Source: Flavobacteriales bacterium (GTDB lineage: Bacteria; Bacteroidota; Bacteroidia; Flavobacteriales_D; CANHHI01). Taken from it: DNA of 34,238 bases. Within the stretch, counting starts at the first letter, position 1. The number at the start of each line of letters is the position of its first letter. Below the pieces are notes generated by a model. It searched no databases and was not told the DNA's origin. It worked only from the letters and a program-made list of their open reading frames with translations. This document shows, piece after piece, positions 5,344 to 33,483 of the stretch. The position numbers were made by a program, and so were the translations under genes. The stretch spans positions 1-34,238 of the forward strand of contig CANHHI010000002.1 in assembly GCA_947460225.1 (NCBI GenBank). The letters are read 5' to 3'.

Positions 5344-7437
5344 CTAAAAGCCGTAGCGAAGGTATGCCTTGATTTCTGATTTGGTGTTTCCTCTAATTTC
5401 TTCATAACCACTGCCCAAAGTTTCTTTGTTGTTGTAAATGCTCGTGCTTAAACGCACCCAGGTTTCCAAGCCCTTGTAAACTTTACATTTCAGCATCAAA
5501 TACAGCCGATGCGAGGTTTCGTAGTACGGCACAATGGAAAACGTGGCAGGCACATCGCTTTCATAGGCGTAAATGCGGGTGTCATAGTCATCTGTTTGAA
5601 TGATTGCGTATCTAAATTTTGCCTGTACAGGAAAAGATTTTGGGCTGAAATCTATATCTTGCAAAAGTACATAACCAAATCTTGTGCCTTTATGGTCTTG
5701 TACGGCTCTGGTCTCGGCACGGCTCTGCGCCCGAAAATACCCAAACAAGGGGTAGGTAACGTTGAGCCTAAAATTGTGCTGGTTTTGCCATGCCACGGCA
5801 AATGTGGGCGCAGTCTCGGTATAAGTGTAAATCTTGCGTTTGTAGCGATATTTGATGTAAAATTGATAATACTTTCGGTAATTGTAATTGAGTTGGCTCA
5901 AAAAATCCATGCCCTCCCCTGGCGTTTGCACGCTATACGTGAGCCAAGGTTGCCGAAAAAAATCCAGGTAATTTTGCCATTGCAAACGACTGGTAAAATC
6001 TACCTGCACACCCAAATAAATGCCTTTTTCATTGTTGGCATCATAGCTTTCGCCAAAGGCACGGGCGTAAAAAGCATGATAATTCGGTGCATAATCTCTA
6101 TACAGCAAACTCAAAGACACTTTTTTGTGCAAGGAAGCCACCAAACCCTGCAAAATAGCATAGCCCAAACTTTCAGACATTGCCAGCTCACCAAAAAGAT
6201 AGACGCTAGACCAAGTCAAGCGATAATCCAAACCCAAGTTATAATTTTGATTGCCCGAAAATTTGTACAAATTATAGGGTGCATCATCTGGCTTTTGCGT
6301 TTTATTCCAATGGATATAACTGCCCGTAAAGCCCATTTGAAAAAGACTGCGTTTGTATTGCAAATACATCGCCGTGAGTGCCTCTTGAATTTGATTGCGC
6401 TTTTTAAAAGAATTGGCGGTATTGTGGTAATTGGACAAACTAAAATTGCTAAAATTTTCCTCCAAACCGCTTTCCGCCGTGCTGTCTATGGGATTAACCA
6501 CCGCATCTTTATGGCGATATGAACCCAGCACAGTCAGTTCTAGGTTTTTGTGCAAAGACAAAGTCATTGCCAAACCTCGCAAATACTGATACTCGTTTAA
6601 AGAGCGGTAGGGCTTTAAAATGGACGCATTTTTTTCCACCTGCAAAACTTGAGCGGTTTTGCCAAAACCCAATCCCGACCAAAAAGTTAAGCCCTGCCCA
6701 AATTCGGCATGAAAATCGCCCACCGCCAAAGTTTTCACAAAACCCAAATCCCGCATGAAAAAATGCGCACTGTAAAAGTCAAAACCATATTTCCAATACG
6801 GATTCTGAAACATTTTCTCCCCTTGGTCTTCGCTAGCAGTAACGCCCACACTCAAACGGTTTTGCACCGAAAACCGATAACGCAGAAAAAACTTATCTGG
6901 ATTGCCCAAATATTTTTTCTCTATGGGTTTTTCATTGCCTTGTTTGTCCAGTTTTCTATATCCTTCTTGGGTTTCTAAAATCCGCCCATACCTCGCCGTT
7001 AATTCGTGTCGTCCTTTTTCTTTGAGCAATTTGTAGCTCCAAGGCGTACGCAAAACAGGCGCAACTTGCACATACAGCTTTAATTTCTGTAATAAAGGCA
7101 TATCCAAAGCCTCAATATTTTGCAGTTCATATAAATTGATGAAATTGCCAAATTTTCTGCGGTGATGCAAAATGGCATGAATCTGCAAAGGGCTCAAAAA
7201 AGGGATTTTTTGCAAATCTTCCGCACTGGCTTTATTCAAAGAAACGGGGTTTTCCCGCAAATAATTCAAATCCTCTTGAATTTCTACCAAATCCAACTCC
7301 TGTTCGCCCATGCTCTCGGCGATGTCTTCCAAAGTTTGCTCAAAAGAACGGTCTAAAAACTCGTTTAAGCTATCTTTTTCCTGTGCAAATAGCTTGCCTA
7401 TACTCAAAAAGGCAAATAAAAACCAATAAAAACGCAT
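5344..7437 (-). CDS. Outer-membrane beta-barrel protein with an N-terminal ComEA-like helix-hairpin-helix (HhH) module
   Basis: Signal peptide MRFYWFLFAFLSIGKLFAQ. The HhH region is ASAEDLQKIPFLSPLQIHAILHHRRKFGNFINLYELQNIEALDMPLLQKL. About 560 aa of Tyr/Gly-rich alternating beta-strand pattern follow, ending in the OMP-type C-terminus YLRYGF. The start is trimmed to 7437. Confidence 0.7.
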   Translation of the reverse strand: MRFYWFLFAFLSIGKLFAQEKDSLNEFLDRSFEQTLEDIAESMGEQELDLVEIQEDLNYLRENPVSLNKASAEDLQKIPFLSPLQIHAILHHRRKFGNFINLYELQNIEALDMPLLQKLKLYVQVAPVLRTPWSYKLLKEKGRHELTARYGRILETQEGYRKLDKQGNEKPIEKKYLGNPDKFFLRYRFSVQNRLSVGVTASEDQGEKMFQNPYWKYGFDFYSAHFFMRDLGFVKTLAVGDFHAEFGQGLTFWSGLGFGKTAQVLQVEKNASILKPYRSLNEYQYLRGLAMTLSLHKNLELTVLGSYRHKDAVVNPIDSTAESGLEENFSNFSLSNYHNTANSFKKRNQIQEALTAMYLQYKRSLFQMGFTGSYIHWNKTQKPDDAPYNLYKFSGNQNYNLGLDYRLTWSSVYLFGELAMSESLGYAILQGLVASLHKKVSLSLLYRDYAPNYHAFYARAFGESYDANNEKGIYLGVQVDFTSRLQWQNYLDFFRQPWLTYSVQTPGEGMDFLSQLNYNYRKYYQFYIKYRYKRKIYTYTETAPTFAVAWQNQHNFRLNVTYPLFGYFRAQSRAETRAVQDHKGTRFGYVLLQDIDFSPKSFPVQAKFRYAIIQTDDYDTRIYAYESDVPATFSIVPYYETSHRLYLMLKCKVYKGLETWVRLSTSIYNNKETLGSGYEEIRGNTKSEIKAYLRYGF

Positions 7438-7454
7438 AAAGTAAAAACATAAGG

Positions 7455-7462
7455 CAAAAATA
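7455..7462 (-). promoter_or_regulatory. -7 box (TATTTTTG on the minus strand) for the HhH-barrel gene
   Basis: Matches TAnnTTTG, 17 nt upstream of the ATG at 7437 and downstream of the cassette terminator. Confidence 0.35.
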
Positions 7463-7494
7463 CAAATTTTATGCAAATACGCATCTAAAAACAC

Positions 7495-7522
7495 GAAAAA
7501 AATCGCCCTAATAGGCGATTTT
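7495..7522 (-). terminator. Intrinsic terminator closing the ParA/AlbA_2 cassette
   Basis: On the minus strand: stem aatcgcc / ggcgatt (7501-7507 / 7514-7520, extendable by A:T pairs), a 6-nt loop, then a run of 7 T. It sits 64 nt past the ParA-like stop. Confidence 0.6.
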
Positions 7523-7585
7523 GAAAATTGAAAACCGCTTTTAATCCTCTTCACGAAATAGATTCCAGCGATTAAAACACTTACA

Positions 7586-8557
7586 TTATTTACACTTATT
7601 TAGAATGTTTATTGTTAACGACTTAAATTCCTCATAACTCTTTTGAACAGCATAAAGATGCGCACCAATTGCACCATCGGCAGGTTTCAAAAGAAAAATT
7701 GGTTTGTTTGATTCCATGGACATAGGGGCTAAACTCCTATAATGTTTTAATAAGGCAATACAATTGTTGTCATTGTCAACAGATTTTACATCTAACTTGT
7801 TTCCTAAAACGTACTCTGAAAATATGGCTGGTATTCTATTTGCCCATTTTAGATATGATTTTACAGGGCTACTTTCTTTTGCGGAATATTGCATGACGAT
7901 ATAACCAATTGGCGTTGAATTTTTTGAAGGTATTTCAAAAGCAACATCCTTTGGTTTTCGTTGTACACGATCTTGCCAATCTATTTTCCATTTTTGTAAT
8001 GTTTGCCCTAAATTTTTTATACCTTGTAGAGAAAATAAATCAGAAGCTACTGGCATTATTATAAAATCCGAACTAATGGTTACCGCCCTGTTAATAGCAC
8101 CTAAATTTGGTCCAACATCTATTAAAACAATCTCCGCACCAAAACGACTAACGGCATCGTTGATAATCGTATTAAAAATACTAGTTAGTTTAAAAGCATA
8201 AGCATCTCCCCCTAATGATTTGAGCCAAGCATCGCTTAACTTATCTTCAAAAACTGAAAGAGAAAGATTACCAAGAATCAAACCTAGGTTATCACTAATA
8301 TTCTCTATATGAACAGGCTTATAAGGCTCTCCTGATACAACAGGATTAATAGAATCAAGAATTGTTAGAGACAAATCTCGTTCATAAACCTCTTCAAGAC
8401 GTTCAGGCGTCAAGAACATTGAGGTCAAATTTGACTGCGGGTCTAAATCAATGGCAATTGTTTTTATACCAAGTTCTGAAAGCATCCACGCAACATGGTA
8501 TACGGTTGTGGTTTTACCTACACCGCCCTTATTGTTAAAAAATATGATGGATTTCAT
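7586..8557 (-). CDS. Orphan ParA/MinD-family deviant Walker-A ATPase (323 aa)
   Basis: FNNKGGVGKTTT (deviant Walker A at aa 10-17), IDLDPQ (A'), VLIDVGP (Walker B). It is about 70 aa longer than Soj-size ParAs, from memory. The start lies 1 nt after the upstream stop (TAA-A-ATG). Confidence 0.85.
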   Translation of the reverse strand: MKSIIFFNNKGGVGKTTTVYHVAWMLSELGIKTIAIDLDPQSNLTSMFLTPERLEEVYERDLSLTILDSINPVVSGEPYKPVHIENISDNLGLILGNLSLSVFEDKLSDAWLKSLGGDAYAFKLTSIFNTIINDAVSRFGAEIVLIDVGPNLGAINRAVTISSDFIIMPVASDLFSLQGIKNLGQTLQKWKIDWQDRVQRKPKDVAFEIPSKNSTPIGYIVMQYSAKESSPVKSYLKWANRIPAIFSEYVLGNKLDVKSVDNDNNCIALLKHYRSLAPMSMESNKPIFLLKPADGAIGAHLYAVQKSYEEFKSLTINILNKCK

Positions 8558-8558
8558 T

Positions 8559-9755
8559 TTACCATTCTTTGTTTATAAAGATTGAAACTTTAAATTTTGT
8601 ACCTAAGGTCAAATCAAAATCTGGTTTTCCATTTCCATTTTTAATCAATTCATCTATGGCTCGCTTTACGCCATAATTAAATTTATTTACATAGCCAAGA
8701 ATTTTCATAGCTTCGGCTAGCACAACATTTCTATAATCACTTGCATTAGGGAAATTTTGAGCATTGGCATCACCAAAAAGCCCACCCGAATTTAATATTT
8801 CTATACGATTGGAAAATTCATAAATATAAATAGGCGCATTTGTTTCATAACTTCTGTGCATAATGGCGTTCATAATCAATTCACGTAATGCCCAATACGA
8901 ATAATTCCTTATCAGGTCTTCTTGAAAAGAATCTCTTTTTACGGGTCTTTCTTTAATGATATTGTTTTTTATAAAATCATCTATTGAATGAAGTTCTGTA
9001 ACAAGTGCACCTGAAAATTTCTTTTCAAATTCAACATCACTAGTCATTTCTTCTCCTCTGTACCTTACATATTGAATATACGCCCCTGGTAAATAATATT
9101 CTGGATTTAGTCCAAAAATTAAAATTCCCGCATGATTAGGACAATTTTCTTTCATGTTAAAAAACCGCAGAGAGGCGAGTTGCTCTTCTACTGTTCTGCC
9201 ATTTTCTTTGATGGTGTCTTTGTCAATGGCTATTGGCAGATAAGTTGATTTGAAATATTCAATGGCAATATCATCAATAGTCGCTCCAAGTGCAGGGGCT
9301 AAATCATAAGTCTTTACATAAGCTGCTCTTCGTTCTGTTAGAATTTTTTCTTCTTCTCCTGTTGCTTTTGTTTGTCTTGGACCTGTTCTTATCCAGCATC
9401 TCCCATCATATCGTACAGGCGGATAACTAGAAGGTTTAACCTCCACCACCACCACTTCGCCTTCGGGAAATGTAAAAACAGGGCTTACAATCAGCGAGGG
9501 TGGAGGCAGGACATTGCCATTCGTTTTAACTCCGCCAATGGTTTGAAGTTCTTTATCTGTCCATTGCTTACCTGCTAATTTACCGTCATCATACACGCCT
9601 AACAAAATATATCCTGAATGTTTATGATTTGGAAAATCATTAGATAAAGCACAAACAGCGGGTCCTAATTTGTCTTCTTTGATGGAAATTGTTCGCTCTA
9701 TCCAATCACTTTCCATATCGGCAATCAATGCTTTTACTTGTTCTTCAGTTATCAT
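8559..9755 (-). CDS. AlbA_2 (Schlafen-like) N-terminal domain + HATPase_c_4 C-terminal domain protein, usually annotated ATP-binding protein / putative transcriptional regulator
   Basis: The N-terminus ESDWIERT...AVCALSN...SGYILLGVYDDGKLAG fits the AlbA_2 pattern (E..lE.K ... AfaN ... GG.l.iGv.d.G.i.G). The C-terminus LRELIMNAIMHRSYETNAPIYIYEFSNRIEILNSGGL fits the HATPase_c_4 pattern. Confidence 0.8.
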   Translation of the reverse strand: MITEEQVKALIADMESDWIERTISIKEDKLGPAVCALSNDFPNHKHSGYILLGVYDDGKLAGKQWTDKELQTIGGVKTNGNVLPPPSLIVSPVFTFPEGEVVVVEVKPSSYPPVRYDGRCWIRTGPRQTKATGEEEKILTERRAAYVKTYDLAPALGATIDDIAIEYFKSTYLPIAIDKDTIKENGRTVEEQLASLRFFNMKENCPNHAGILIFGLNPEYYLPGAYIQYVRYRGEEMTSDVEFEKKFSGALVTELHSIDDFIKNNIIKERPVKRDSFQEDLIRNYSYWALRELIMNAIMHRSYETNAPIYIYEFSNRIEILNSGGLFGDANAQNFPNASDYRNVVLAEAMKILGYVNKFNYGVKRAIDELIKNGNGKPDFDLTLGTKFKVSIFINKEW

Positions 9756-9832
9756 AATGTTAATTTATGTTATCGTACGCTGAACAACCCCAGCAATAAA
9801 CATTTTTTATATTTTTTGCATTATTAAATTAA

Positions 9833-9887
9833 ACTCACTGCGAAAGTCTTTTGTGAAAAATATGCACCAAAAAATGCTTTTCACAGC
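9833..9887 (-). repeat. Internally deleted, inverted copy of the R1 hairpin element
   Basis: actcactgcgaaa (9833-9845) resembles the reverse complement of the copy A right end (28041-28053). tgtgaaaaatatgcaccaaaaaatgcttttc resembles the reverse complement of the copy A left arm (about 27925-27955). The central ~75 bp is missing. Confidence 0.5.
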
Positions 9888-9926
9888 GGACTTGTTATAG
9901 ACTGGCTTGGCTAATTTATAACCCGC

Positions 9927-9998
9927 AATATTTTCATGCTTTTCTTGTGCAAACAACCGACTTCCATAAAGGCACAAACGCAAAAGCCATTTCTTCAT
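9927..9998 (-). pseudogene. Signal-peptide-only stub (MKKWLLRLCLYGSRLFAQEKHENI...), a probable remnant of a secreted-protein gene
   Basis: The ORF 9807..9998 opens with a typical signal peptide and then runs straight into the R1 fragment and stops. Its LFAQEK cleavage region is identical to the one in the HhH-barrel protein now located 2.5 kb downstream. Confidence 0.3.
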
Positions 9999-10011
9999 AG
10001 CATAACCTTAG

Positions 10012-10019
10012 CAAAGGTA
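10012..10019 (-). promoter_or_regulatory. -7 box (TACCTTTG on the minus strand) downstream of bamA
   Basis: Matches TAnnTTTG, 13 nt upstream of the stub ATG at 9998. It is the only consensus-like box I found upstream of the cassette. Confidence 0.3.
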
Positions 10020-10058
10020 AGAAATTTCCAAATACTTAGGTAAAAAATATAAAAGTTA

Positions 10059-12524
10059 TTATAAATCCCCCACTTGGAAGCCCAAAGTAAACACAAACCT
10101 ACCAGTACCAGGCGCATTATATTTACCAAATTCTTGCAAATTATCAAAAGTCCATGCGTAATCCAAACCGAGCATGCCCACAATAGGCAAGAAAATTCTC
10201 AATCCAAGACCAGCACTTCGTTTTAAATTAAAAGGATTGAAATTTTTAAAATCCATCCACGTATTGGCTGCCTCGGCAAAAGCCAAGGCAAAAATAGTCG
10301 CACTCGGGCTAATGATAATCGGATACCTAAGTTCTGCTGTATATTTCGCCACAATGGCACTGCCGTTTTTGTAATTCACCGCCTCGTCATCATAGCCTCT
10401 AAACGCAACGATTTCACGCCCATAATAAAAAATACCGATACCCGTCAAGCCATTTCCGCCCACGGCAAAACGTTCAAAAGGATTTAAGCCCAATTTAGCA
10501 TTATAATACCCCAAATAGCCAAAGCCAGCTTTTAAGCGCAATACCAATTTTTGGTCTTTGGTCAAGGGCGTAAACCACTCGGTGGCAAATTTAATTTTAT
10601 AGTATTCCGCCACTGGAAATTCTTGGGTTTCTTTGATTTTTTCCACCTGTGCGGTTGGCATAAAGAAAGAATACGGTGGCGTAAACTGCCCACTGAGCAA
10701 AATATGCGAACCACTGCGTGGATACACTGGGTGGTCTATGGATTTCCTTTGCAAACGCAAACTGATGTTAAAGTTATGCGTTTTGCCGTTTTTCAAGGAA
10801 AAAAAGCTGTAATTGTTGACATTATAGTGTTGGTAGCCAATTTCCTCCTGCAAAGTAAAATAATCATCTGGAAAAGTAAGCCTTTGCCCAAAACCAACCG
10901 ATGCACCAATAATAGCAAAAGATTGTCTTTTGGCACCTGTTTGGTTGTTGCTATTCAAAGAATAAGAACCCGTAAGCGTAAAAGAATGCGGTTTCTTCCC
11001 ACCCAGCCAAGGTTCTGTAAATTGAAAACTATAATTTTGATAATACAAGCCCGTTGCAGATATTTTCAAGGACAACTCCTGTCCTGCCCCTGCTGGCAAA
11101 GGTCGCCATGCTTCTTTTTTAAAAATATCTTGCAAAGAAAAGTTTTTCAGCACCAAGCCCACACTGGCAATCACAGAGTTATAGCCCCCCCAGCCTGCTG
11201 AAAGCTCCACCTGGTCGGAAGACGTTTCTTCTACCGTATAGCGAATATCCACCGTGTTGTCTTCAGGGTGCGGAATAGGTTCTATGCCAATTTTTTCCGC
11301 ATTAAAATAGCCTTTTGAGGACAGCTCTGTTTGGGTACGGATAATATTTTCTCGGCTAAAAAGTTCCCCTGGCAAAGTGTATAAACTGCGCTGAATCACG
11401 TAGTCTTTGGTTTTGTCGTTGCCTGTAATAAAAATCCTGCCAATTCTATACTGCTCGCCTTCTCTGATGCGAATTTCCAAATCTATGGAATCTTTTTCTA
11501 TACCGACCTCCAAGGGTTGCACGCTGGCAGTCAAATAGCCGTTGTTCATATACAAACCCAAAATATCCCGAGACGATTTTTGGTCGTAGGTCAGCCTTTG
11601 GTTGAGCAAATCTTGGTTGTAAATGTCTCCCTTTTTGATACCCAGCAAAGTATCCAAAAACCCAGAGCGATACACGGTATTGCCGACAAAACGTATGTTG
11701 CGGAAATGATACTGCACGCCCTCTTGGATTTTGATGATAAGTTTTAAGGTTTTATCATCAAGCACCACCAAACTATCGCTGACAATGCTTGCATCTCGAT
11801 AGCCCTGTTTTCTGTACTTGGCAATTAAATTGATTTTATCCTCTTCAAATTTTTCACGGATAAACTTAGAACTTTTGTAAAAGCGTATCCAAAGTTTTTG
11901 TTTGGTATTTTTGAGGTAACGGCGAATTTTGGCATTGCTAAATTTGACATTGCCCTCGGTTTCTATTTTTTGTATTTTAAATCTTTTGCCTTTGTTGATA
12001 TTCAAAGCCAAGCGCAAGCCACCACTCACGGAGTCGTATTGTTGGAGCACCTGAACTTGTGCATTAAAATAGCCTTTTTCTTCGTAATATTTTTGAATGC
12101 GCTGGGTTGCTTCATAAACCAAGTTTTCCGAAAGTTGCATGCCTGGTTTTAGGCTAATTTTTTCTTTGAGTTTTTTAATGTCGCCACTTTTTACGCCCGT
12201 TATGTTAAATTTGCTCACACGAACCCGCTCCATCACTTGTATTTCCAAATAAACCAATTGCCCGATTTTTTCGGTGATTTCTATTTTTACATCGGAAAAA
12301 TAATTTTGTTTCCACAAACTTTTTATAGCATTGCCAATGGTTTCACTGGGCAAAATCAAAGATTGCCCCACACGCAAACCCGACAGTAAAATCACGCTAT
12401 TTTCATCAACACTTTGGTTGCCTACCACGCGAATGCCTGCAATTTCGTACATGTTTTTGTACTGTGCAGTTAGGGTTGCGCTCAAAGCAAGGAGCAAGAA
12501 AAATAAAAAGCGAATATTGCGCAT
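10059..12524 (-). CDS. bamA: Outer membrane protein assembly factor BamA
   Basis: Signal peptide MRNIRFLFFLLLALSATLTAQ, an N-terminal region of POTRA-repeat length, and a C-terminal Omp85 barrel. It lies immediately downstream of uppS, as is usual in Bacteroidota. Confidence 0.9.
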   Translation of the reverse strand: MRNIRFLFFLLLALSATLTAQYKNMYEIAGIRVVGNQSVDENSVILLSGLRVGQSLILPSETIGNAIKSLWKQNYFSDVKIEITEKIGQLVYLEIQVMERVRVSKFNITGVKSGDIKKLKEKISLKPGMQLSENLVYEATQRIQKYYEEKGYFNAQVQVLQQYDSVSGGLRLALNINKGKRFKIQKIETEGNVKFSNAKIRRYLKNTKQKLWIRFYKSSKFIREKFEEDKINLIAKYRKQGYRDASIVSDSLVVLDDKTLKLIIKIQEGVQYHFRNIRFVGNTVYRSGFLDTLLGIKKGDIYNQDLLNQRLTYDQKSSRDILGLYMNNGYLTASVQPLEVGIEKDSIDLEIRIREGEQYRIGRIFITGNDKTKDYVIQRSLYTLPGELFSRENIIRTQTELSSKGYFNAEKIGIEPIPHPEDNTVDIRYTVEETSSDQVELSAGWGGYNSVIASVGLVLKNFSLQDIFKKEAWRPLPAGAGQELSLKISATGLYYQNYSFQFTEPWLGGKKPHSFTLTGSYSLNSNNQTGAKRQSFAIIGASVGFGQRLTFPDDYFTLQEEIGYQHYNVNNYSFFSLKNGKTHNFNISLRLQRKSIDHPVYPRSGSHILLSGQFTPPYSFFMPTAQVEKIKETQEFPVAEYYKIKFATEWFTPLTKDQKLVLRLKAGFGYLGYYNAKLGLNPFERFAVGGNGLTGIGIFYYGREIVAFRGYDDEAVNYKNGSAIVAKYTAELRYPIIISPSATIFALAFAEAANTWMDFKNFNPFNLKRSAGLGLRIFLPIVGMLGLDYAWTFDNLQEFGKYNAPGTGRFVFTLGFQVGDL

Positions 12525-27915: not shown

Positions 27916-28053
27916 AACCCAAGCGAAAAGCATTTTCTGGTGCATATTTTTCACAAAATCTCATCTTCTAATCCTCACATACTTAGGTATCTTGTGGGTT
28001 TTAGATTTCTCTTTTGCAAAAACTATTTTCCATAAAATACTTTCGCAATGAGC
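27916..28053 (+). repeat. R1 palindromic MITE-like element, copy A
   Basis: Aligns over its full length with 29147-29283 in the same orientation, at roughly 75-80% by eye. The shared core is ttcacaa...atcctcacatacttaggtat...gggttt.agatttc...ttgcaaaaa. Confidence 0.65.
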
Positions 28054-28148: not shown

Positions 28149-28970
28149 TTAAACTAGCGCAAAAGGGAATGTTTGTTTAACACGCTCCTTGGTCAATGCA
28201 GGTAATGGGTTATAGAGTAAATAAAGTTCCTTTAATAATGAGAGTCCATAAAAAGACTCTGGTAAACTTGTCAAAGCATTGCTTATTAAGTCTAATTTTT
28301 TTAGATGTCTTAAATTGCCAATAGATTTTGGCAAAGTGCTTAAATTGTTGTCGTATAAAGTCAAAATGGTTAAACCTGTCATTTCGCCAATATTTTCAGG
28401 CAAACTCGTCAAAAGATTTCTGCCGAGCCAAAGCACAGACAAATCTCGCATGCTCAAAAGCTCTTCTGGAAATTCTGCTATTGTATTGTCTGCCAAATGT
28501 AACGTTGTCAAATTTTTTAAGTTTGAAAAATGCTCGGGCAATGCGCTTATTTGATTTGAATACGCACTAAGTGTTTCAAGCGAATGTAGCAAGCTGATTT
28601 CCTCAGGCAATTCTACAAGCATGTTTTCTTGCACTAATAATGTATTTAAAGATTTTAAATTGCCAATGCTTTTGGGCAAATGCGTTATAGCAAGTTCATT
28701 AAGGTATAAATACGTTAAAGAGGTGAAGCAGCCCAAAGTTTCTGGCATTATTTCCAGGTCTAAATCAATGATCGACATTTTGATGACCTCGCCCTGTGCG
28801 TTGAAATTTACATAAGCCTGATTAAAAGGATACTCTTGTAGGAGTTCTGCTTGAGGTTTACACGAAAGTTCCGTTTCGTTTTTTGTTGCTACGGATACCA
28901 AATTTTGATTTTTTTTGCAGTTTGTAGCTGTTAAAGACAAAGCTACCAAGAATACATGTTTTTGTTTCAT
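28149..28970 (-). CDS. Leucine-rich repeat (LRR) protein with a signal peptide and possible lipoprotein Cys18
   Basis: MKQKHVFLVALSLTATNC, then about 7.5 tandem 23-aa LRRs of the form LxxLxLxxNxLxxLPxxIGxLxx (for example LTSLPENIGEMTG, LSTLPKSIGNLRH). A hand-counted sample at 28301-28400 is 33% GC. Confidence 0.8.
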   Translation of the reverse strand: MKQKHVFLVALSLTATNCKKNQNLVSVATKNETELSCKPQAELLQEYPFNQAYVNFNAQGEVIKMSIIDLDLEIMPETLGCFTSLTYLYLNELAITHLPKSIGNLKSLNTLLVQENMLVELPEEISLLHSLETLSAYSNQISALPEHFSNLKNLTTLHLADNTIAEFPEELLSMRDLSVLWLGRNLLTSLPENIGEMTGLTILTLYDNNLSTLPKSIGNLRHLKKLDLISNALTSLPESFYGLSLLKELYLLYNPLPALTKERVKQTFPFALV

Positions 28971-32197: not shown

Positions 32198-32989
32198 ATG
32201 AATATCAACCAAGTTCATCAAGGTGACGCTTTACAGCTTATAAAAAAGCTACCTGATAATAGCGTGGATTTAATCGTGTGTGATGGTCCTTATGGTGTTA
32301 CTGCTAACGCTTGGGATAAAGTATTGGATATTCAACATTATAATTTGCATTTAATTCAATTGTTTTCTAGAGTTTTGAAGCCAGGAGGTGCTTTGTATTT
32401 GTTTGGAAAAGATAATTGTATAGATTTTATAGATTATAGACCTTACCTAAACTTAAATCGTAAAATTATATGGTATCAACCCAGCAGACTTGCACAGGGT
32501 AGGATAAATTACACCAACAACTATGACTTGATTGCTTATTTTACCAAAGGCAAAGCAAAAACGTATAATTTAGATGCTATCAGAATTCCCCAATTGGTTG
32601 AATTAGAACATCGTTTGCGTTGTGAAAAAGTTCCTTCTGTTTTAAAAGGGCAATATGGAAAGACAAAATTTAATGATGAAGGGAAAAATCCAGGAGATGT
32701 TTGGGGAGATATAAAACAATTAACCTATAATTCAAAAGAACTGATAAGTAGATCATTGTTAAATACGATTCAAAAACCCGAACGACTTATTGAGCGCATT
32801 GTAAAAGCAAGTTCCAACGAAAATGATTTAGTATTAGACCCGTTTTCAGGTGTAGGAACAACATTTGCAGTTTGTCAAAAAATAGATAGACAATTTATTG
32901 GTTTTGAAATTAACCCCGAATTTATTAGCATTACGGAAAATAGAATAAAAAAAATACAACAAGAAAAAGAATATAGCTTATTTTCATGA
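32198..32989 (+). CDS. Beta-class N4-cytosine/N6-adenine DNA methyltransferase (DNA methylase N-4/N-6 family)
   Basis: Motif IV is N-terminal (LIVCDGPYGV, a DGPY variant of D/SPPY). Motif I is C-terminal (LVLDPFSGVGTTFAV). This IV...I order defines the beta class. Confidence 0.88.
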   Translation: MNINQVHQGDALQLIKKLPDNSVDLIVCDGPYGVTANAWDKVLDIQHYNLHLIQLFSRVLKPGGALYLFGKDNCIDFIDYRPYLNLNRKIIWYQPSRLAQGRINYTNNYDLIAYFTKGKAKTYNLDAIRIPQLVELEHRLRCEKVPSVLKGQYGKTKFNDEGKNPGDVWGDIKQLTYNSKELISRSLLNTIQKPERLIERIVKASSNENDLVLDPFSGVGTTFAVCQKIDRQFIGFEINPEFISITENRIKKIQQEKEYSLFS

Positions 32990-33483
32990 AAAAAACACTT
33001 ATCCGAAATATTATAGACCTTATTGTTCAAGCGCAACAAATAGCTTCTAAAATAGGTATTCCAAATATATTACAGCCAGGACTTATTAAAGAAATGATTA
33101 TTGCGGATATTTTAGGACACCAGCTTATTCATTCAAAAAGAGATGCAGATGCCTGCCAAATAGACAATCCAACAATAAAATATGAATATCTTTCTTGTTA
33201 TGTTGGTGGTACAGGTCAATTAGATAGAATGTTTAAAGAGCCTTTGTTAGAGCGAGAACGTTCAATGGACAGGATATGGCGAAATAGCAAAATTTATCTG
33301 GCTGTTTTTTTGAAAGAAACTCCACTAGAAGTCAAAGTTATTTATGAAGTAGAACCATCTGTCTTGGCACAAGAAACACAAAGGCAGTTAGACAAAAGTA
33401 GCAATGCTATTTCTCATGTAGGGTTTTCAGAAAATTGGGCAAAAAATAATGGTAAAGTGGTTTATCAAAAAGTTGAATTTTAA
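32986..33483 (+). CDS. Putative type II restriction endonuclease, PvuII-like by sequence pattern
   Basis: ATGA start/stop overlap with the MTase gene; 165 aa. By-eye alignment to my recollection of R.PvuII: GIPNILQP / GINDIFQD, RDADAC / GNDAVD, KYEYLS / EYELKS, IYLAVF...VIYEVEPSVL / IFAIY...AIYRLEPKDL. Confidence 0.55.
   Translation: MKKTLIRNIIDLIVQAQQIASKIGIPNILQPGLIKEMIIADILGHQLIHSKRDADACQIDNPTIKYEYLSCYVGGTGQLDRMFKEPLLERERSMDRIWRNSKIYLAVFLKETPLEVKVIYEVEPSVLAQETQRQLDKSSNAISHVGFSENWAKNNGKVVYQKVEF

What the first reader, a model, noticed from the sequence alone, without database searches (positions are those of the whole stretch)
7495..10058. Self-contained AT-rich two-gene cassette: an AlbA_2/Schlafen-like + HATPase_c_4 protein translationally coupled to an orphan ParA/MinD ATPase, a candidate undescribed defence/conflict module
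Seen in sequence: on the minus strand, a 398-aa gene (9755->8559) and a 323-aa gene (8557->7586) are joined by TAA-A-ATG. The pair is closed by its own hairpin plus T7 terminator (7495-7522), and the next gene downstream has its own -7 box. A hand-counted 100-nt sample from the cassette (8001-8100) is 32% GC. Samples from the flanking bamA (11001-11100) and HhH-barrel gene (6001-6100) are each 42% GC. The cassette sits in a spacer that also holds a signal-peptide stub and a truncated R1 repeat, which looks like an insertion scar. Protein 1 combines an AlbA_2/Schlafen-type nucleic-acid-binding N-domain with a GHKL-like HATPase_c_4 C-domain. Protein 2 has a deviant Walker A (KGGVGKTT), A' (DLDPQ) and Walker B (VLIDVGP). 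No ParB or centromere-binding partner, replication gene or integrase is nearby, so it is not a partition locus. Established knowledge: Schlafen/AlbA_2 domains and stand-alone P-loop ATPases recur in prokaryotic defence islands, and ParA/MinD ATPases are ATP-dependent dimerising switches that bind DNA non-specifically. Inference: the ParA-like protein could be a DNA-bound sensor or scaffold that licenses the AlbA_2-HATPase protein, or the reverse. I know of no named defence system with this pairing.
Basis: partly seen in the sequence, partly recalled or inferred. Interest (0 to 1): 0.8.

Follow-up and report, generated by a model that had tools for sequence, protein, structure and literature searches.

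The report
Schlafen-ATPase plus ParA-like defence pair
This is a horizontally mobile two-gene module, found in at least ten named bacterial phyla and in archaea, that pairs a Schlafen-type RNase/ATPase protein with a special ParA-like ATPase; it is most likely an undescribed anti-phage or conflict system, not a DNA-partition locus.

Summary
Both genes, the TAA-A-ATG junction, the terminator and the AT-rich composition are present as described.

P1 (398 aa) is a "Schlatpase": a Schlafen/AlbA_2 domain plus a GHKL ATPase domain. This is the commonest class of prokaryotic Schlafen proteins. P2 (323 aa) is an intact deviant-Walker-A ATPase of a distinct ParA subfamily typified by DIP2308 (PDB 3PG5).

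- **Synteny.** P1 lies directly upstream of P2 in 60 loci. These span many Bacteroidota orders, at least nine other named bacterial phyla and Altiarchaeota. In 49 of the 60 the junction is -4 or +1 nt.
- **Co-divergence.** The identities of P1 and P2 to the window copy correlate at r = 0.98.
- **Fusion.** A natural P1-P2 fusion protein was assembled in at least 15 contigs.
- **No conserved third gene.** No ParB, integrase or other gene recurs, and the pair is absent from plasmid and phage collections.
- **Swappable partners.** Sister ATPases are coupled to a SIR2 NADase (39 of 46 loci) or fused to a RES domain.
- **R-M origin.** Bacteroidota copies sit between hsdS and hsdM, and the window keeps a probable hsdS tail remnant.

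The pairing is not in PADLOC v2 or the searched literature. I read it as a new variant of nuclease/NADase-plus-NTPase defence. The function is inferred and untested. The Schlafen catalytic lysine is replaced by threonine.

The parts
8559..9755 (-). P1 gene, 398 aa: Schlafen/AlbA_2 domain plus GHKL (HATPase_c_4) ATPase, the 'Schlatpase' architecture, with no C-terminal HTH. Predicted effector.
   Evidence: ORF. Pfam. Foldseek full-length match to 3LMM (DIP2311), plus SLFN11-14 and histidine-kinase CA domains. 1698 homologues.
9363..9713 (-). Schlafen/AlbA_2 domain of P1 (residues 15-131).
   Evidence: Pfam PF04326, E 2.9e-13. SAFAN-like box CALSN at residues 35-39 and a GYILLGVYDDG core.
9690..9713 (-). 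Variant nuclease motif E15-x4-E20-R21-T22. The canonical motif is E-x4-(E/D)-x-K, so the lysine is replaced by threonine.
   Evidence: Alignments. T22 is invariant in the 36 close homologues. The deep branches L094, L099, L103, L118 and L120 keep K. Canonical motif from PMC13056530.
8583..8837 (-). GHKL/HATPase_c_4 ATP-binding domain of P1 (residues 307-391). N-box residues E292, N296, H300 and R301 and the G-box N322-x-G-G-L are invariant.
   Evidence: Pfam PF13749, E 1.2e-12. Invariant columns. Histidine-kinase CA-domain fold matches.
8555..8561 (-). Gene junction TAA-A-ATG, indicating translational coupling.
   Evidence: In 60 loci the junction is -4 (ATGA) in 29 and +1 in 20.
7586..8557 (-). 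P2 gene, 323 aa: ParA/MinD-type deviant-Walker-A ATPase of the DIP2308 (3PG5) subfamily. Predicted sensor or switch.
   Evidence: 3PG5, E 6e-26; TMq 0.65, TMt 0.68; 411 clusters at E <= 1e-30.
8507..8530 (-). Deviant Walker A, K10-GGVGK15-TT.
   Evidence: G12-T17 are invariant and K10 and G11 nearly invariant (90% or more) in 34 homologues. D37-L-D-P-Q41 and the D147-V-G-P part of Walker B are also invariant.
7913..8500 (-). Mosaic, hyper-divergent core of P2 (codons 20-215) relative to the nearest relative L125.
   Evidence: dS is 0.90 here against 0.13 in bamA and uppS. Nucleotide identity is 59-91% against about 97% in the flanks.
7496..7522 (-). Intrinsic terminator closing the pair.
   Evidence: 10-pair stem, T-run. 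Sequence.
9762..9830 (-). Probable remnant of the 3' end of a type I R-M hsdS gene (aligned core 9782-9810), directly upstream of P1.
   Evidence: A profile of hsdS tails from six other loci has its best hit in the whole window here. E is 0.031 against 0.86 for the next hit, and the register relative to the P1 ATG agrees to within 1 nt. The remnant is clearer in L125 (E 0.005; translated AQKLKVLQ*QKKFLFLGLF against L001 AKKIEQLKLHKKGLMQGLFP).
9807..9998 (-). 63-aa signal-peptide-like stub ORF in the bamA-P1 spacer. It contains a 34-nt repeat (9849-9882) also found at 27925-27958.
   Evidence: It is 45 aa in L125. Its significance is unresolved.

Best explanation
P1 and P2 form one two-component conflict system, most likely anti-phage of the abortive-infection type.

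- **P1 is the effector.** It has a Schlafen-fold RNase domain whose activity depends on ATP-driven oligomerisation through its GHKL domain. This follows what was shown for the same supradomain in the SLFN-pAgo RzAgo.
- **P2 is the sensor or switch.** It is an ATP-dependent dimerising ParA/MinD-type ATPase with all catalytic motifs intact. I propose it binds P1, holds it inactive, and licenses it when an infection cue changes P2's nucleotide, DNA-bound or partner-bound state.
- **Outcome.** Activated P1 would cleave tRNA or rRNA and arrest translation.

Shown here: the domain composition, strict co-inheritance, translational coupling, a natural fusion, interchangeable toxic partners of P2-type ATPases, horizontal mobility, and R-M linkage.

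Inferred: a physical P1-P2 complex, which protein senses what, the RNA substrate, and the defence phenotype.

The confidence given (0.6) is for the conflict/defence-system reading as a whole. The specific direction of control (P2 gating a P1 RNase) I would put nearer 0.4.
For: - **Synteny.** A P1 homologue lies directly upstream of P2 in 31 of 33 loci and in all 31 loci of the second scan whose ATPase scores E <= 1e-80 against the P2 profile.
- **Coupling and co-divergence.** In 60 full-length pairs the junction is -4 or +1 nt in 49, and r = 0.98 between the P1 and P2 identities.
- **No third gene.** None is conserved.
- **Spread.** Many Bacteroidota orders plus Verrucomicrobiota, Planctomycetota, Latescibacterota, Myxococcota, Acidobacteriota, Chloroflexota, Hydrogenedentota, Armatimonadota, Proteobacteria and three Altiarchaeota MAGs.
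- **Fusion.** P0246 (731 aa: SLFN_AlbA_2, HATPase_c_4, AAA_31) was assembled in at least 15 contigs from several samples.
- **Sister clade.** The sister ATPases align end to end with P2. They are followed by a ThsA/Dsr-like SIR2_2 protein in 39 of 46 loci, on plasmids too, including one that has its own separate ParAB. One relative is fused to a RES domain.
- **R-M linkage.** L002 has the order hsdR-hsdS-P1-P2-hsdM. hsdS or hsdM fragments flank the pair in L001, L003, L005, L025, L030 and L031. There is a probable hsdS tail in the window. Algoriphagus carries the pair beside CRISPR-Cas and AAA_15/DUF4276.
- **Selection.** Purifying selection acts on both genes (dN/dS about 0.15-0.17), with a recombined P2 core.
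- **Literature.** Prokaryotic Schlafens defend against phage by tRNA cleavage (PMC13056530). GHKL ATP binding tetramerises and activates the Slfn domain (bioRxiv 10.64898/2026.05.29.728809). A ParA/AAA_31 protein, GiPD474, confers phage resistance (PMC12724215).
Against: - No experiment exists for this pair.
- The Slfn motif is E-x4-E-R-T, not E-x4-(E/D)-x-K, in the window and most of the clade. Nuclease activity may therefore be lost or altered.
- Only about 12-15 of about 66 loci have a recognisable defence or R-M gene among the nearest neighbours. Many copies, including this one, sit alone among housekeeping genes.
- Neither gene matches a PADLOC system as such.
- In PMC13056530 only the DUF262 and Ig-like fusions of the seven systems tested protected E. 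coli, so the HisKinase-type Schlafens tested there gave no protection.
- The AF2 models are of low confidence (pLDDT 62 and 65).
- No trigger can be named.
Confidence: 0.6

Rival explanations
1. The pair is a selfish toxin-antitoxin-like addiction module. P1 is a toxin, P2 is its ATP-dependent antidote or regulator, and the pair persists by post-segregational killing or as a stabiliser of genomic islands, with no dedicated anti-phage role.
For: Compact, translationally coupled, horizontally mobile two-gene unit. The partners of P2-type ATPases (SIR2, RES) are also classic toxin domains, and RES is the toxin of Xre-RES TA systems. Many copies are solitary among housekeeping genes. Decayed copies exist in L015 and L030-L032.
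Against: The pair is essentially absent from plasmids (0 of 72,556 records at 60% identity or more), where addiction modules thrive. The 323-aa ATPase is far larger than typical antitoxins. The gene order is toxin first. Embedding in R-M operons and Schlafen precedents point to phage defence. TA and abortive-infection roles are not mutually exclusive.
Confidence: 0.15
2. The pair is an accessory of type I restriction-modification, a PrrC/RloC-like back-up. It is kept latent by the R-M complex and fires when phage inhibits restriction. Solitary copies such as this one would be orphaned remnants.
For: hsdR-hsdS-P1-P2-hsdM operon in L002. hsdS or hsdM flanks or remnants in six further Bacteroidota loci, and a probable hsdS tail in the window. 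Type III-like MTase directly upstream in L012, L016 and L026. The literature notes Schlatpase modules exchanged with, or fused to, type I R-M HsdS.
Against: Most of the 60 pairs, including those in almost all the non-Bacteroidota phyla, have no R-M neighbour, yet remain intact under purifying selection. The fused form sits between proS and a yhdP-like gene. The sister SIR2 pairs are also mostly R-M-independent.
Confidence: 0.1
3. The pair is a non-immune housekeeping or regulatory module. P1 would be a nucleic-acid-binding regulator (COG2865 proteins are annotated as transcriptional regulators) with a catalytically dead Schlafen domain. P2 would position it or switch it on the nucleoid.
For: Loss of the motif lysine. 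Solitary chromosomal location among housekeeping genes, stable in the lineage. Purifying selection. 30% of prokaryotic Schlafen genes have no defence neighbours.
Against: P1 lacks the HTH found in regulator-type COG2865 proteins. The distribution is patchy and inter-domain, with 72-74% identity between Bacteroidota and Altiarchaeota, and GC3 is foreign. The sister ATPases pair with SIR2 and RES toxins. There is an allelic mosaic in P2.
Confidence: 0.1
4. The pair is a decayed partition or positioning locus of a mobile element. P2 would be the ParA, and P1 a ParB-like adaptor or an unrelated passenger.
For: P2 has the full ParA/Soj fold and motifs. NCBIfam gives sub-threshold hits to RepA and ParA partition models.
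Against: All NCBIfam partition scores are far below cut-off, for example 53.6 bits against 348. No ParB, centromere repeats, replication gene or integrase appears in the window or recurs in 35 loci. The gene order is the reverse of parAB. The clade is absent from plasmids. pVPon1 carries a separate canonical ParAB next to a P2-like+SIR2 pair.
Confidence: 0.03

Closest known systems
Prokaryotic Schlafen defence proteins (pSlfn, e.g. RorSlfn5 and EcoSlfn7; PMC13056530) and the 'Schlatpase' SLFN+GHKL supradomain of SLFN-pAgo RzAgo (bioRxiv 10.64898/2026.05.29.728809)
   Same: P1 has the same SLFN_AlbA_2 + PF13749 GHKL architecture, the commonest pSlfn class. It has a SAFAN-like box and both motif glutamates, and it hits the PADLOC SLFN-pAgo model. 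It shows the same association with R-M operons.
   Different: P1 is a stand-alone Schlatpase with no fused sensor (no pAgo, Ig, DUF262 or HTH). It is obligatorily paired with a ParA-type ATPase, which neither paper mentions. The motif lysine is replaced by threonine.
Two-gene effector+NTPase defence systems (SIR2-HerA; nuclease-NTPase systems such as Gabija, Septu and PARIS; bioRxiv 10.1101/2025.07.10.664194)
   Same: Same operon logic: a toxic effector plus a P-loop NTPase partner, with swappable effectors on a conserved NTPase. Here the effectors are Schlatpase, SIR2 and RES.
   Different: The NTPase is a SIMIBI-class ParA/MinD dimerising switch, not an ABC/OLD, HerA/FtsK, STAND or helicase ATPase. 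The effector carries its own second ATPase (GHKL).
PrrC and RloC anticodon nucleases embedded in type I R-M loci (my knowledge, not tested here)
   Same: A predicted tRNA-directed RNase associated with an NTPase and inserted between hsd genes (L002: hsdS-P1-P2-hsdM).
   Different: The folds are unrelated. Most copies are R-M-independent. No evidence exists for latency imposed by HsdMSR.
ParABS, Soj and MinD partition/positioning ATPases
   Same: P2 shares the fold, the deviant Walker A with signature lysine, and switch I and Walker B.
   Different: No ParB, MinE or centromere partner. P2 has an extra inserted region after about residue 195, which is where the alignments to Soj and to 3PG5 stop. 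It belongs to a separate subfamily with DIP2308. Its genomic partners are toxin domains.
GiPD474, a Gifsy-1 prophage ParA/AAA_31 defence protein (PMC12724215)
   Same: A ParA/AAA_31-type ATPase that experimentally confers phage resistance. P22-like phages carry a protein about 30% identical to P2 in the same repressor-adjacent position.
   Different: GiPD474 is a single-gene system with an unknown C-terminal domain.
DIP2308 (PDB 3PG5) and DIP2311 (PDB 3LMM), uncharacterised structural-genomics proteins of Corynebacterium diphtheriae
   Same: These are the best solved-structure matches of P2 and P1 respectively. Their locus tags are three apart in one genome.
   Different: DIP2311 is longer (583 aa, with extra C-terminal domains). 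Other Corynebacterium orthologues of DIP2308 lie next to a type IV restriction enzyme, and no Schlatpase lies within 8 kb.

Membership tests
Prokaryotic Schlafen / Schlatpase (SLFN_AlbA_2 + GHKL) | SLFN_AlbA_2 domain | tested here: met
   Pfam PF04326, 50.8 bits against a cut-off of 25.3. Foldseek hits to SLFN11, 12, 13 and 14.
Prokaryotic Schlafen / Schlatpase (SLFN_AlbA_2 + GHKL) | GHKL ATPase domain PF13749 C-terminal to the Slfn domain, with ATP-binding N-box and G-box | tested here: met
   PF13749, 48.1 bits against a cut-off of 26. E292, N296, H300, R301, N322, G324 and G325 are invariant. Histidine-kinase CA fold matches.
Prokaryotic Schlafen / Schlatpase (SLFN_AlbA_2 + GHKL) | Catalytic E-x4-(E/D)-x-K motif | tested here: not met
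   The window has E15-x4-E20-R-T22. T is invariant in close homologues. Only deep branches keep K.
Prokaryotic Schlafen / Schlatpase (SLFN_AlbA_2 + GHKL) | SAFAN (Schlafen box) and the Gly/hydrophobic core | tested here: met
   C35-A-L-S-N39 (family consensus CAFSN) and GYILLGVYDDG.
Prokaryotic Schlafen / Schlatpase (SLFN_AlbA_2 + GHKL) | tRNA/rRNA cleavage and phage protection | not testable with these tools
   Requires biochemistry and phage assays.
ParA/MinD (SIMIBI deviant Walker A) ATPases | KGGxGK[ST] with signature lysine, switch I D-x-D-P-Q, Walker B | tested here: met
   K10GGVGK15TT, D37LDPQ41 and D147 are conserved: all invariant except K10 and G11, which are nearly invariant at 90% or more.
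ParA/MinD (SIMIBI deviant Walker A) ATPases | ParA/Soj fold | tested here: met
   Foldseek: 3PG5 with TMq 0.65 and TMt 0.68, Soj with TMq 0.50-0.52 and TMt 0.59-0.62. AAA_31, 98.3 bits.
ParABS-type partition locus | Adjacent ParB/centromere-binding partner and centromere repeats; plasmid, phage or origin-proximal context | tested here: not met
   No conserved third gene in 35 loci. No ParB within 6 kb. No repeat array. NCBIfam partition models are far below cut-off. The clade is absent from PLSDB.
Named defence systems in PADLOC-DB v2.0.0 | Both proteins match the models of one system | tested here: not met
   P1 hits only the Slfn-GHKL portion of the pAgo and Aga_SIR2-PNTD models. P2 hits only the P-loop of PDC-M28B. 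None of the ten large window ORFs scanned has a PIWI/pAgo domain, though two of them matched no Pfam family.
Type I R-M-embedded defence genes (PrrC-like context) | Located between hsd genes of one operon | tested here: inconclusive
   Met in L002, L001 and L031, and as remnants in L003, L005, L025 and L030. In the window there is only a 29-nt hsdS-tail match at E 0.031 and no hsdM remnant.
Defence-island resident | Enrichment of known defence genes in the neighbourhood | tested here: inconclusive
   R-M, Hma, AbiEi and CRISPR neighbours occur in roughly 12-15 of 66 loci, counting only the two nearest genes per side. No matched control was run. The window itself has none within 20 kb.

The most novel reading that the evidence does not exclude
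DIP2308-like ParA/MinD ATPases (about 400 clusters at 50% identity) are an unrecognised, widespread family of immune switch or sensor proteins in bacteria and archaea. They pair or fuse with interchangeable toxic effectors: a Schlafen-GHKL RNase (this window), a SIR2 NADase and a RES NADase. This would make a ParA-type nucleotide-dependent dimerisation switch, classically a DNA-positioning device, a new class of defence regulator.
Probability: 0.5. Interest if true: 0.78.

Novelty: new variant of a known kind. Interest (0 to 1): 0.66.

Why it matters
Stand-alone Schlafen-GHKL proteins are the most abundant prokaryotic Schlafen class, yet they carry no sensor and nobody knows how they are controlled. 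This pair offers a concrete, testable answer for one large clade: a dedicated ParA-type ATPase partner.

It would add SIMIBI/ParA ATPases to the short list of NTPase families that gate immune effectors (STAND, ABC/OLD, HerA, SMC). The ParA-like+SIR2 and ParA-like-RES relatives found here would be explained by the same logic.

The pair is small (2.2 kb), self-contained and present in cultivable strains (Algoriphagus sp. NG3, Lunatimonas lonarensis, Chitinophaga, Arcicella). Experiments are therefore straightforward.

Tried and rejected
- **Empty-site test.** A scan of 185,579 species genomes with BamA found no close relative; the best match is 47% identity. All 80 distant Bacteroidota keep uppS-bamA but have neither the cassette nor the HHH_3 gene downstream. 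The test is inconclusive. The only close relatives (L121-L125) all carry the cassette at the same site.
- **Terminal repeats or att sites.** None was found around the cassette.
- **hsdM or hsdS remnants by tblastn.** Nothing turned up in the window. Only the later nucleotide profile found the hsdS tail.
- **DIP2308-DIP2311 linkage in other Corynebacterium species.** No Schlatpase lies within 8 kb of the ParA-like gene there.
- **Structure models.** The alignments were shallow and confidence is low (pLDDT 62 and 65). I used the models only for fold-level matches, not for active-site geometry.
- **Literature.** Searches for the pairing with the terms ParA+Schlafen, AAA_31, COG2865, ParA-like+SIR2, AlbA_2+ParA and PNTD found no description.
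- **Supplementary tables of PMC13056530.** These are not held.
- **Partition-locus reading.** Rejected, for the reasons given under the rivals.
- **P0241.** This 536-aa top hit looks like an assembly duplication of a P2-like gene and I ignored it.

Full report
**Observation**

The two minus-strand ORFs are exactly as described: 8559-9755 (398 aa, P1) and 7586-8557 (323 aa, P2). They are joined by TAA-A-ATG and closed by a 10-pair hairpin at 7522-7499 plus a T-run.

Pfam gives SLFN_AlbA_2 (residues 15-131) and HATPase_c_4 (307-391) for P1, and AAA_31/CbiA for P2.

The cassette is 34.9% GC against 40.6-41.5% for bamA, uppS and the HHH_3 gene. The contrast is much sharper at third codon positions, 24-25% against 43-45%.

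The 63-aa signal-peptide-like stub (9807-9998) and a 34-nt repeat (9849-9882, 97% identical to 27925-27958) are real.

The neighbourhood is housekeeping: MgtE, EamA, UppS and BamA on one side, and HHH_3, ComF-like and TP_methylase on the other. There is no ParB, integrase or replication gene. The HHH_3 gene more likely starts at the ATG at 7436 than at the GTG at 7554, which ORF listing reports and which would overlap the terminator.

**What P1 and P2 are**

P1 is the stand-alone form of the Schlafen+GHKL supradomain that a 2026 preprint named "Schlatpase". That preprint shows 58.6% of 103,533 prokaryotic Schlafen proteins carry the GHKL domain, and most are small proteins with nothing else or a short HTH. 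The same architecture is the commonest prokaryotic Schlafen class ("HisKinase", 34%) in the Nature Microbiology study that showed Schlafen proteins defend bacteria by tRNA cleavage.
- This explains the PADLOC hits of P1 to pAgo and Aga_SIR2-PNTD models.
- Foldseek matches P1 over its full length to 3LMM (DIP2311), and by domain to SLFN11-14 and histidine-kinase CA domains. The model itself is of low confidence (pLDDT 62).
- The GHKL N-box and G-box residues are invariant.
- The Schlafen domain keeps both motif glutamates and a SAFAN-like box. The canonical E-x4-(E/D)-x-K is E-x4-E-R-T in the window and most of the clade. Only the deepest branches retain the lysine.

P2 has every ParA/MinD catalytic motif conserved: most residues are invariant, and K10 and G11 are nearly so. 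It belongs to a distinct subfamily.
- Its best solved relative is DIP2308 (3PG5), at E 6e-26 over residues 1-195. Soj matches at 1e-12 on the P-loop only. Foldseek gives TMq 0.65 and TMt 0.68.
- An exhaustive search finds 411 clusters at 50% identity with E <= 1e-30.

**Is the pair a unit?**

Yes.
- **First scan.** A species-genome scan with P2 returned 33 loci, and a P1 homologue lies immediately upstream in 31 of them.
- **Second scan.** A scan seeded with the 3PG5 fragment returned 80 loci. All 31 whose ATPase scores E <= 1e-80 against a P2 profile have a P1 homologue directly upstream, and so does L093, a more divergent pair.
- **Junction.** Across 60 loci with both genes full-length, the junction is a 4-nt ATGA overlap (29 loci) or TAAnATG (20 loci).
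- **Co-divergence.** The two proteins' identities to the window copy correlate at r = 0.98.
- **No third gene.** Clustering of all flanking ORFs finds none.
- **Hosts.** Many Bacteroidota orders, Verrucomicrobiota, Planctomycetota, Latescibacterota, Myxococcota, Acidobacteriota, Chloroflexota, Hydrogenedentota, Armatimonadota and beta- and gamma-Proteobacteria carry the pair.
- **Archaea.** Three Altiarchaeota MAGs have it at 71-74% identity. One of those contigs also carries an archaeal-type DHQS II.
- **Fusion.** The exhaustive search revealed a natural fusion, P0246 (731 aa: SLFN_AlbA_2 11-127, HATPase_c_4 303-387, AAA_31 402-605). It was assembled in at least 15 contigs from several samples, at one chromosomal site between proS and a yhdP-like gene.

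**Not a partition locus**

- NCBIfam partition models score far below cut-off.
- No plasmid among 72,556 records and no phage among 50,697 carries a close homologue.
- Only one of 2.9 million viral contigs carries the pair.
- Vibrio ponticus pVPon1 has a canonical ParA-ParB and, separately, a P2-like ATPase followed by a SIR2 gene.

**The sister systems**

The 46 loci with more distant P2-like ATPases align end to end with the P2 profile.
- In 39 of them a roughly 285-aa SIR2_2 protein lies directly downstream. Its best PADLOC matches are ThsA, Dsr2 and LmuA.
- The same pair occurs on Spirosoma and Salmonella Infantis plasmids.
- These loci often sit beside BamHI-type R-M, methylases and small serine recombinases.
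- Another relative, P0313, has a degenerate Walker A and is fused to a RES domain.
- The Corynebacterium orthologues of DIP2308 abut a type IV restriction enzyme.
- P22-like phages ST160 and SE1 carry a protein about 30% identical to P2, directly after the c2 repressor together with a DUF3024 gene. The experimentally validated ParA/AAA_31 defence protein GiPD474 is described in the same context.

So P2-type ATPases are a constant module whose partners are interchangeable toxin or effector domains.

**Origin and mobility of the window's copy**

In the Bacteroidota subclade the pair sits inside type I R-M operons.
- L002 reads hsdR-hsdS-P1-P2-hsdM, with 1-4 nt gaps between genes.
- L001 and L031 keep hsdS upstream.
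- L003, L005, L025 and L030 keep only hsdS 3' or hsdM 5' fragments.
- L012, L016 and L026 have an N6_N4 methylase upstream.

A nucleotide profile of the hsdS tails from six other loci has its best hit in the whole 34-kb window at 9810-9782. E is 0.031 against 0.86 for the next hit, and the register relative to the P1 ATG agrees to within 1 nt. The relative L125 shows the remnant more clearly (E 0.005; translated AQKLKVLQ*QKKFLFLGLF against AKKIEQLKLHKKGLMQGLFP). No hsdM remnant is detectable downstream.

This is the real scar. The cassette was imported from an R-M operon together with the last codons of hsdS.

No empty site could be found, because the species collection has no close relative (best BamA identity 47%).

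Within the lineage the cassette is fixed at this site but is not evolving like its flanks. Against L125:
- bamA and uppS have dS of about 0.13 and dN/dS of 0.01-0.03.
- P1 has dS of 0.19 and dN/dS of 0.17.
- The central part of P2 has dS of 0.90.

This indicates allelic replacement by recombination, with both genes still under purifying selection.

**Defence association**

The association is real but moderate.
- Among the two nearest genes on each side, R-M components dominate the PADLOC hits in the first set of 35 loci.
- Hma, AbiEi, HsdS and methylases appear in the second set of 31.
- Algoriphagus sp. NG3 has the pair next to HTH genes, an ISL3 transposase, AAA_15+DUF4276 and a type I CRISPR-Cas.
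- Roughly 12-15 of 66 loci qualify. Many copies, including this one, are solitary.
- I did not run a matched control.

**Mechanism**

The best-supported reading is a two-component conflict system. P1 is the effector: a Schlafen RNase whose assembly into an active oligomer is driven by ATP binding to its GHKL domain, as shown for RzAgo. P2 is the ATP-dependent dimerising switch that senses the cue and restrains or licenses P1.

What is shown: domain composition, co-inheritance, coupling, fusion, swappable effectors, mobility and R-M linkage.

What is inferred: the complex, the direction of control, the RNA target, the trigger and the phenotype.

The K-to-T change in the nuclease motif and the modest defence-island signal are the main reasons for caution. 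Rival readings, in descending likelihood, are a TA-like addiction module, an R-M accessory, a non-immune regulator and a decayed partition locus.

**Novelty**

Neither this pair nor the ParA-like+SIR2 pair is in PADLOC v2.0.0. No paper in the searched corpus, up to September 2026, describes either. The components belong to known kinds, namely prokaryotic Schlafen effectors and effector+NTPase operons. I therefore class this as a new variant of a known kind, with a fair chance that it exposes a new family of ParA-type immune switches.

Noticed in passing
L045-L088 and L106; L206 (pVPon1), L289 (Spirosoma plasmid), L290 (Salmonella Infantis plasmid): A second apparently undescribed two-gene system: a DIP2308-like ParA ATPase directly followed by a roughly 285-aa ThsA/Dsr-like SIR2_2 protein (39 of 46 loci). 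It often lies next to BamHI-type R-M, methylases or small serine recombinases. The ATPase has no PADLOC hit.
   Followed up: partly
P0313 (545 aa) and P0308 (595 aa): P2-like ATPases with degenerate Walker A motifs, fused to a C-terminal RES domain (P0313, on 5-6 contigs) or to an unannotated roughly 270-aa extension whose sequence EYAIEVKRL I read as possibly E-x-K-like (P0308).
   Followed up: partly
P0246; L293-L296, e.g. L293 6001-8196: A natural single-polypeptide fusion of the P1 and P2 architectures (731 aa), lying between proS and a yhdP-like gene. It recurs in at least 15 contigs from several metagenomes.
   Followed up: yes
One copy lies in the bamA-P1 spacer and two lie upstream of the BipA/TypA gene. 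Possibly a host regulatory or REP-like element.
   Followed up: partly
window 7436-7554: The longest-ORF start of the HHH_3 gene (GTG at 7554) overlaps the cassette terminator. The ATG at 7436, followed by the signal peptide MRFYWFLFAFLSIGKLFAQ, is the likelier start, as called in related contigs (697 aa).
   Followed up: partly
window 32198-33483: An N6_N4 DNA methylase (263 aa) overlaps a 165-aa ORF with no Pfam match, in a 30-33% GC island. This may be a type II R-M system, about 22 kb from the cassette.
   Followed up: no
window 28149-28970: A leucine-rich-repeat protein (273 aa) in another AT-rich stretch (33-35% GC).
   Followed up: no
window 7913-8500 compared with L125: The central part of P2 has dS of 0.90 between two strains whose flanking genes have dS of about 0.13. 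This suggests a recombined or mosaic allele and may mark the specificity-determining surface.
   Followed up: partly
PDB 3PG5 and 3LMM: The best solved-structure matches of P2 and P1 are DIP2308 and DIP2311, three locus tags apart in Corynebacterium diphtheriae. The species-genome scan recovered only a 667-nt C. belfantii fragment and no C. diphtheriae locus, which might mean the region is strain-variable.
   Followed up: partly
L207 (Salmonella phage ST160) 3515-5068: P22-like phages carry a DUF3024 gene plus a ParA-like gene (about 30% identical to P2) immediately after the c2 repressor, a rexAB-like lysogenic-defence position. This matches the context reported for GiPD474.
   Followed up: partly
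L015, L030, L031, L032: Decayed copies. One Altarchaeum MAG has P2 but has lost P1 at the same locus where a sister MAG (L013) has both. L030-L032 carry truncated, frameshifted or fused remnants.
   Followed up: partly
L008 2076-3832 and 8944-10940: The pair is bracketed by inverted duplicate ECF-sigma/FecR gene pairs in one Chitinophagales MAG, and a related pair flanks it in L029.
   Followed up: no
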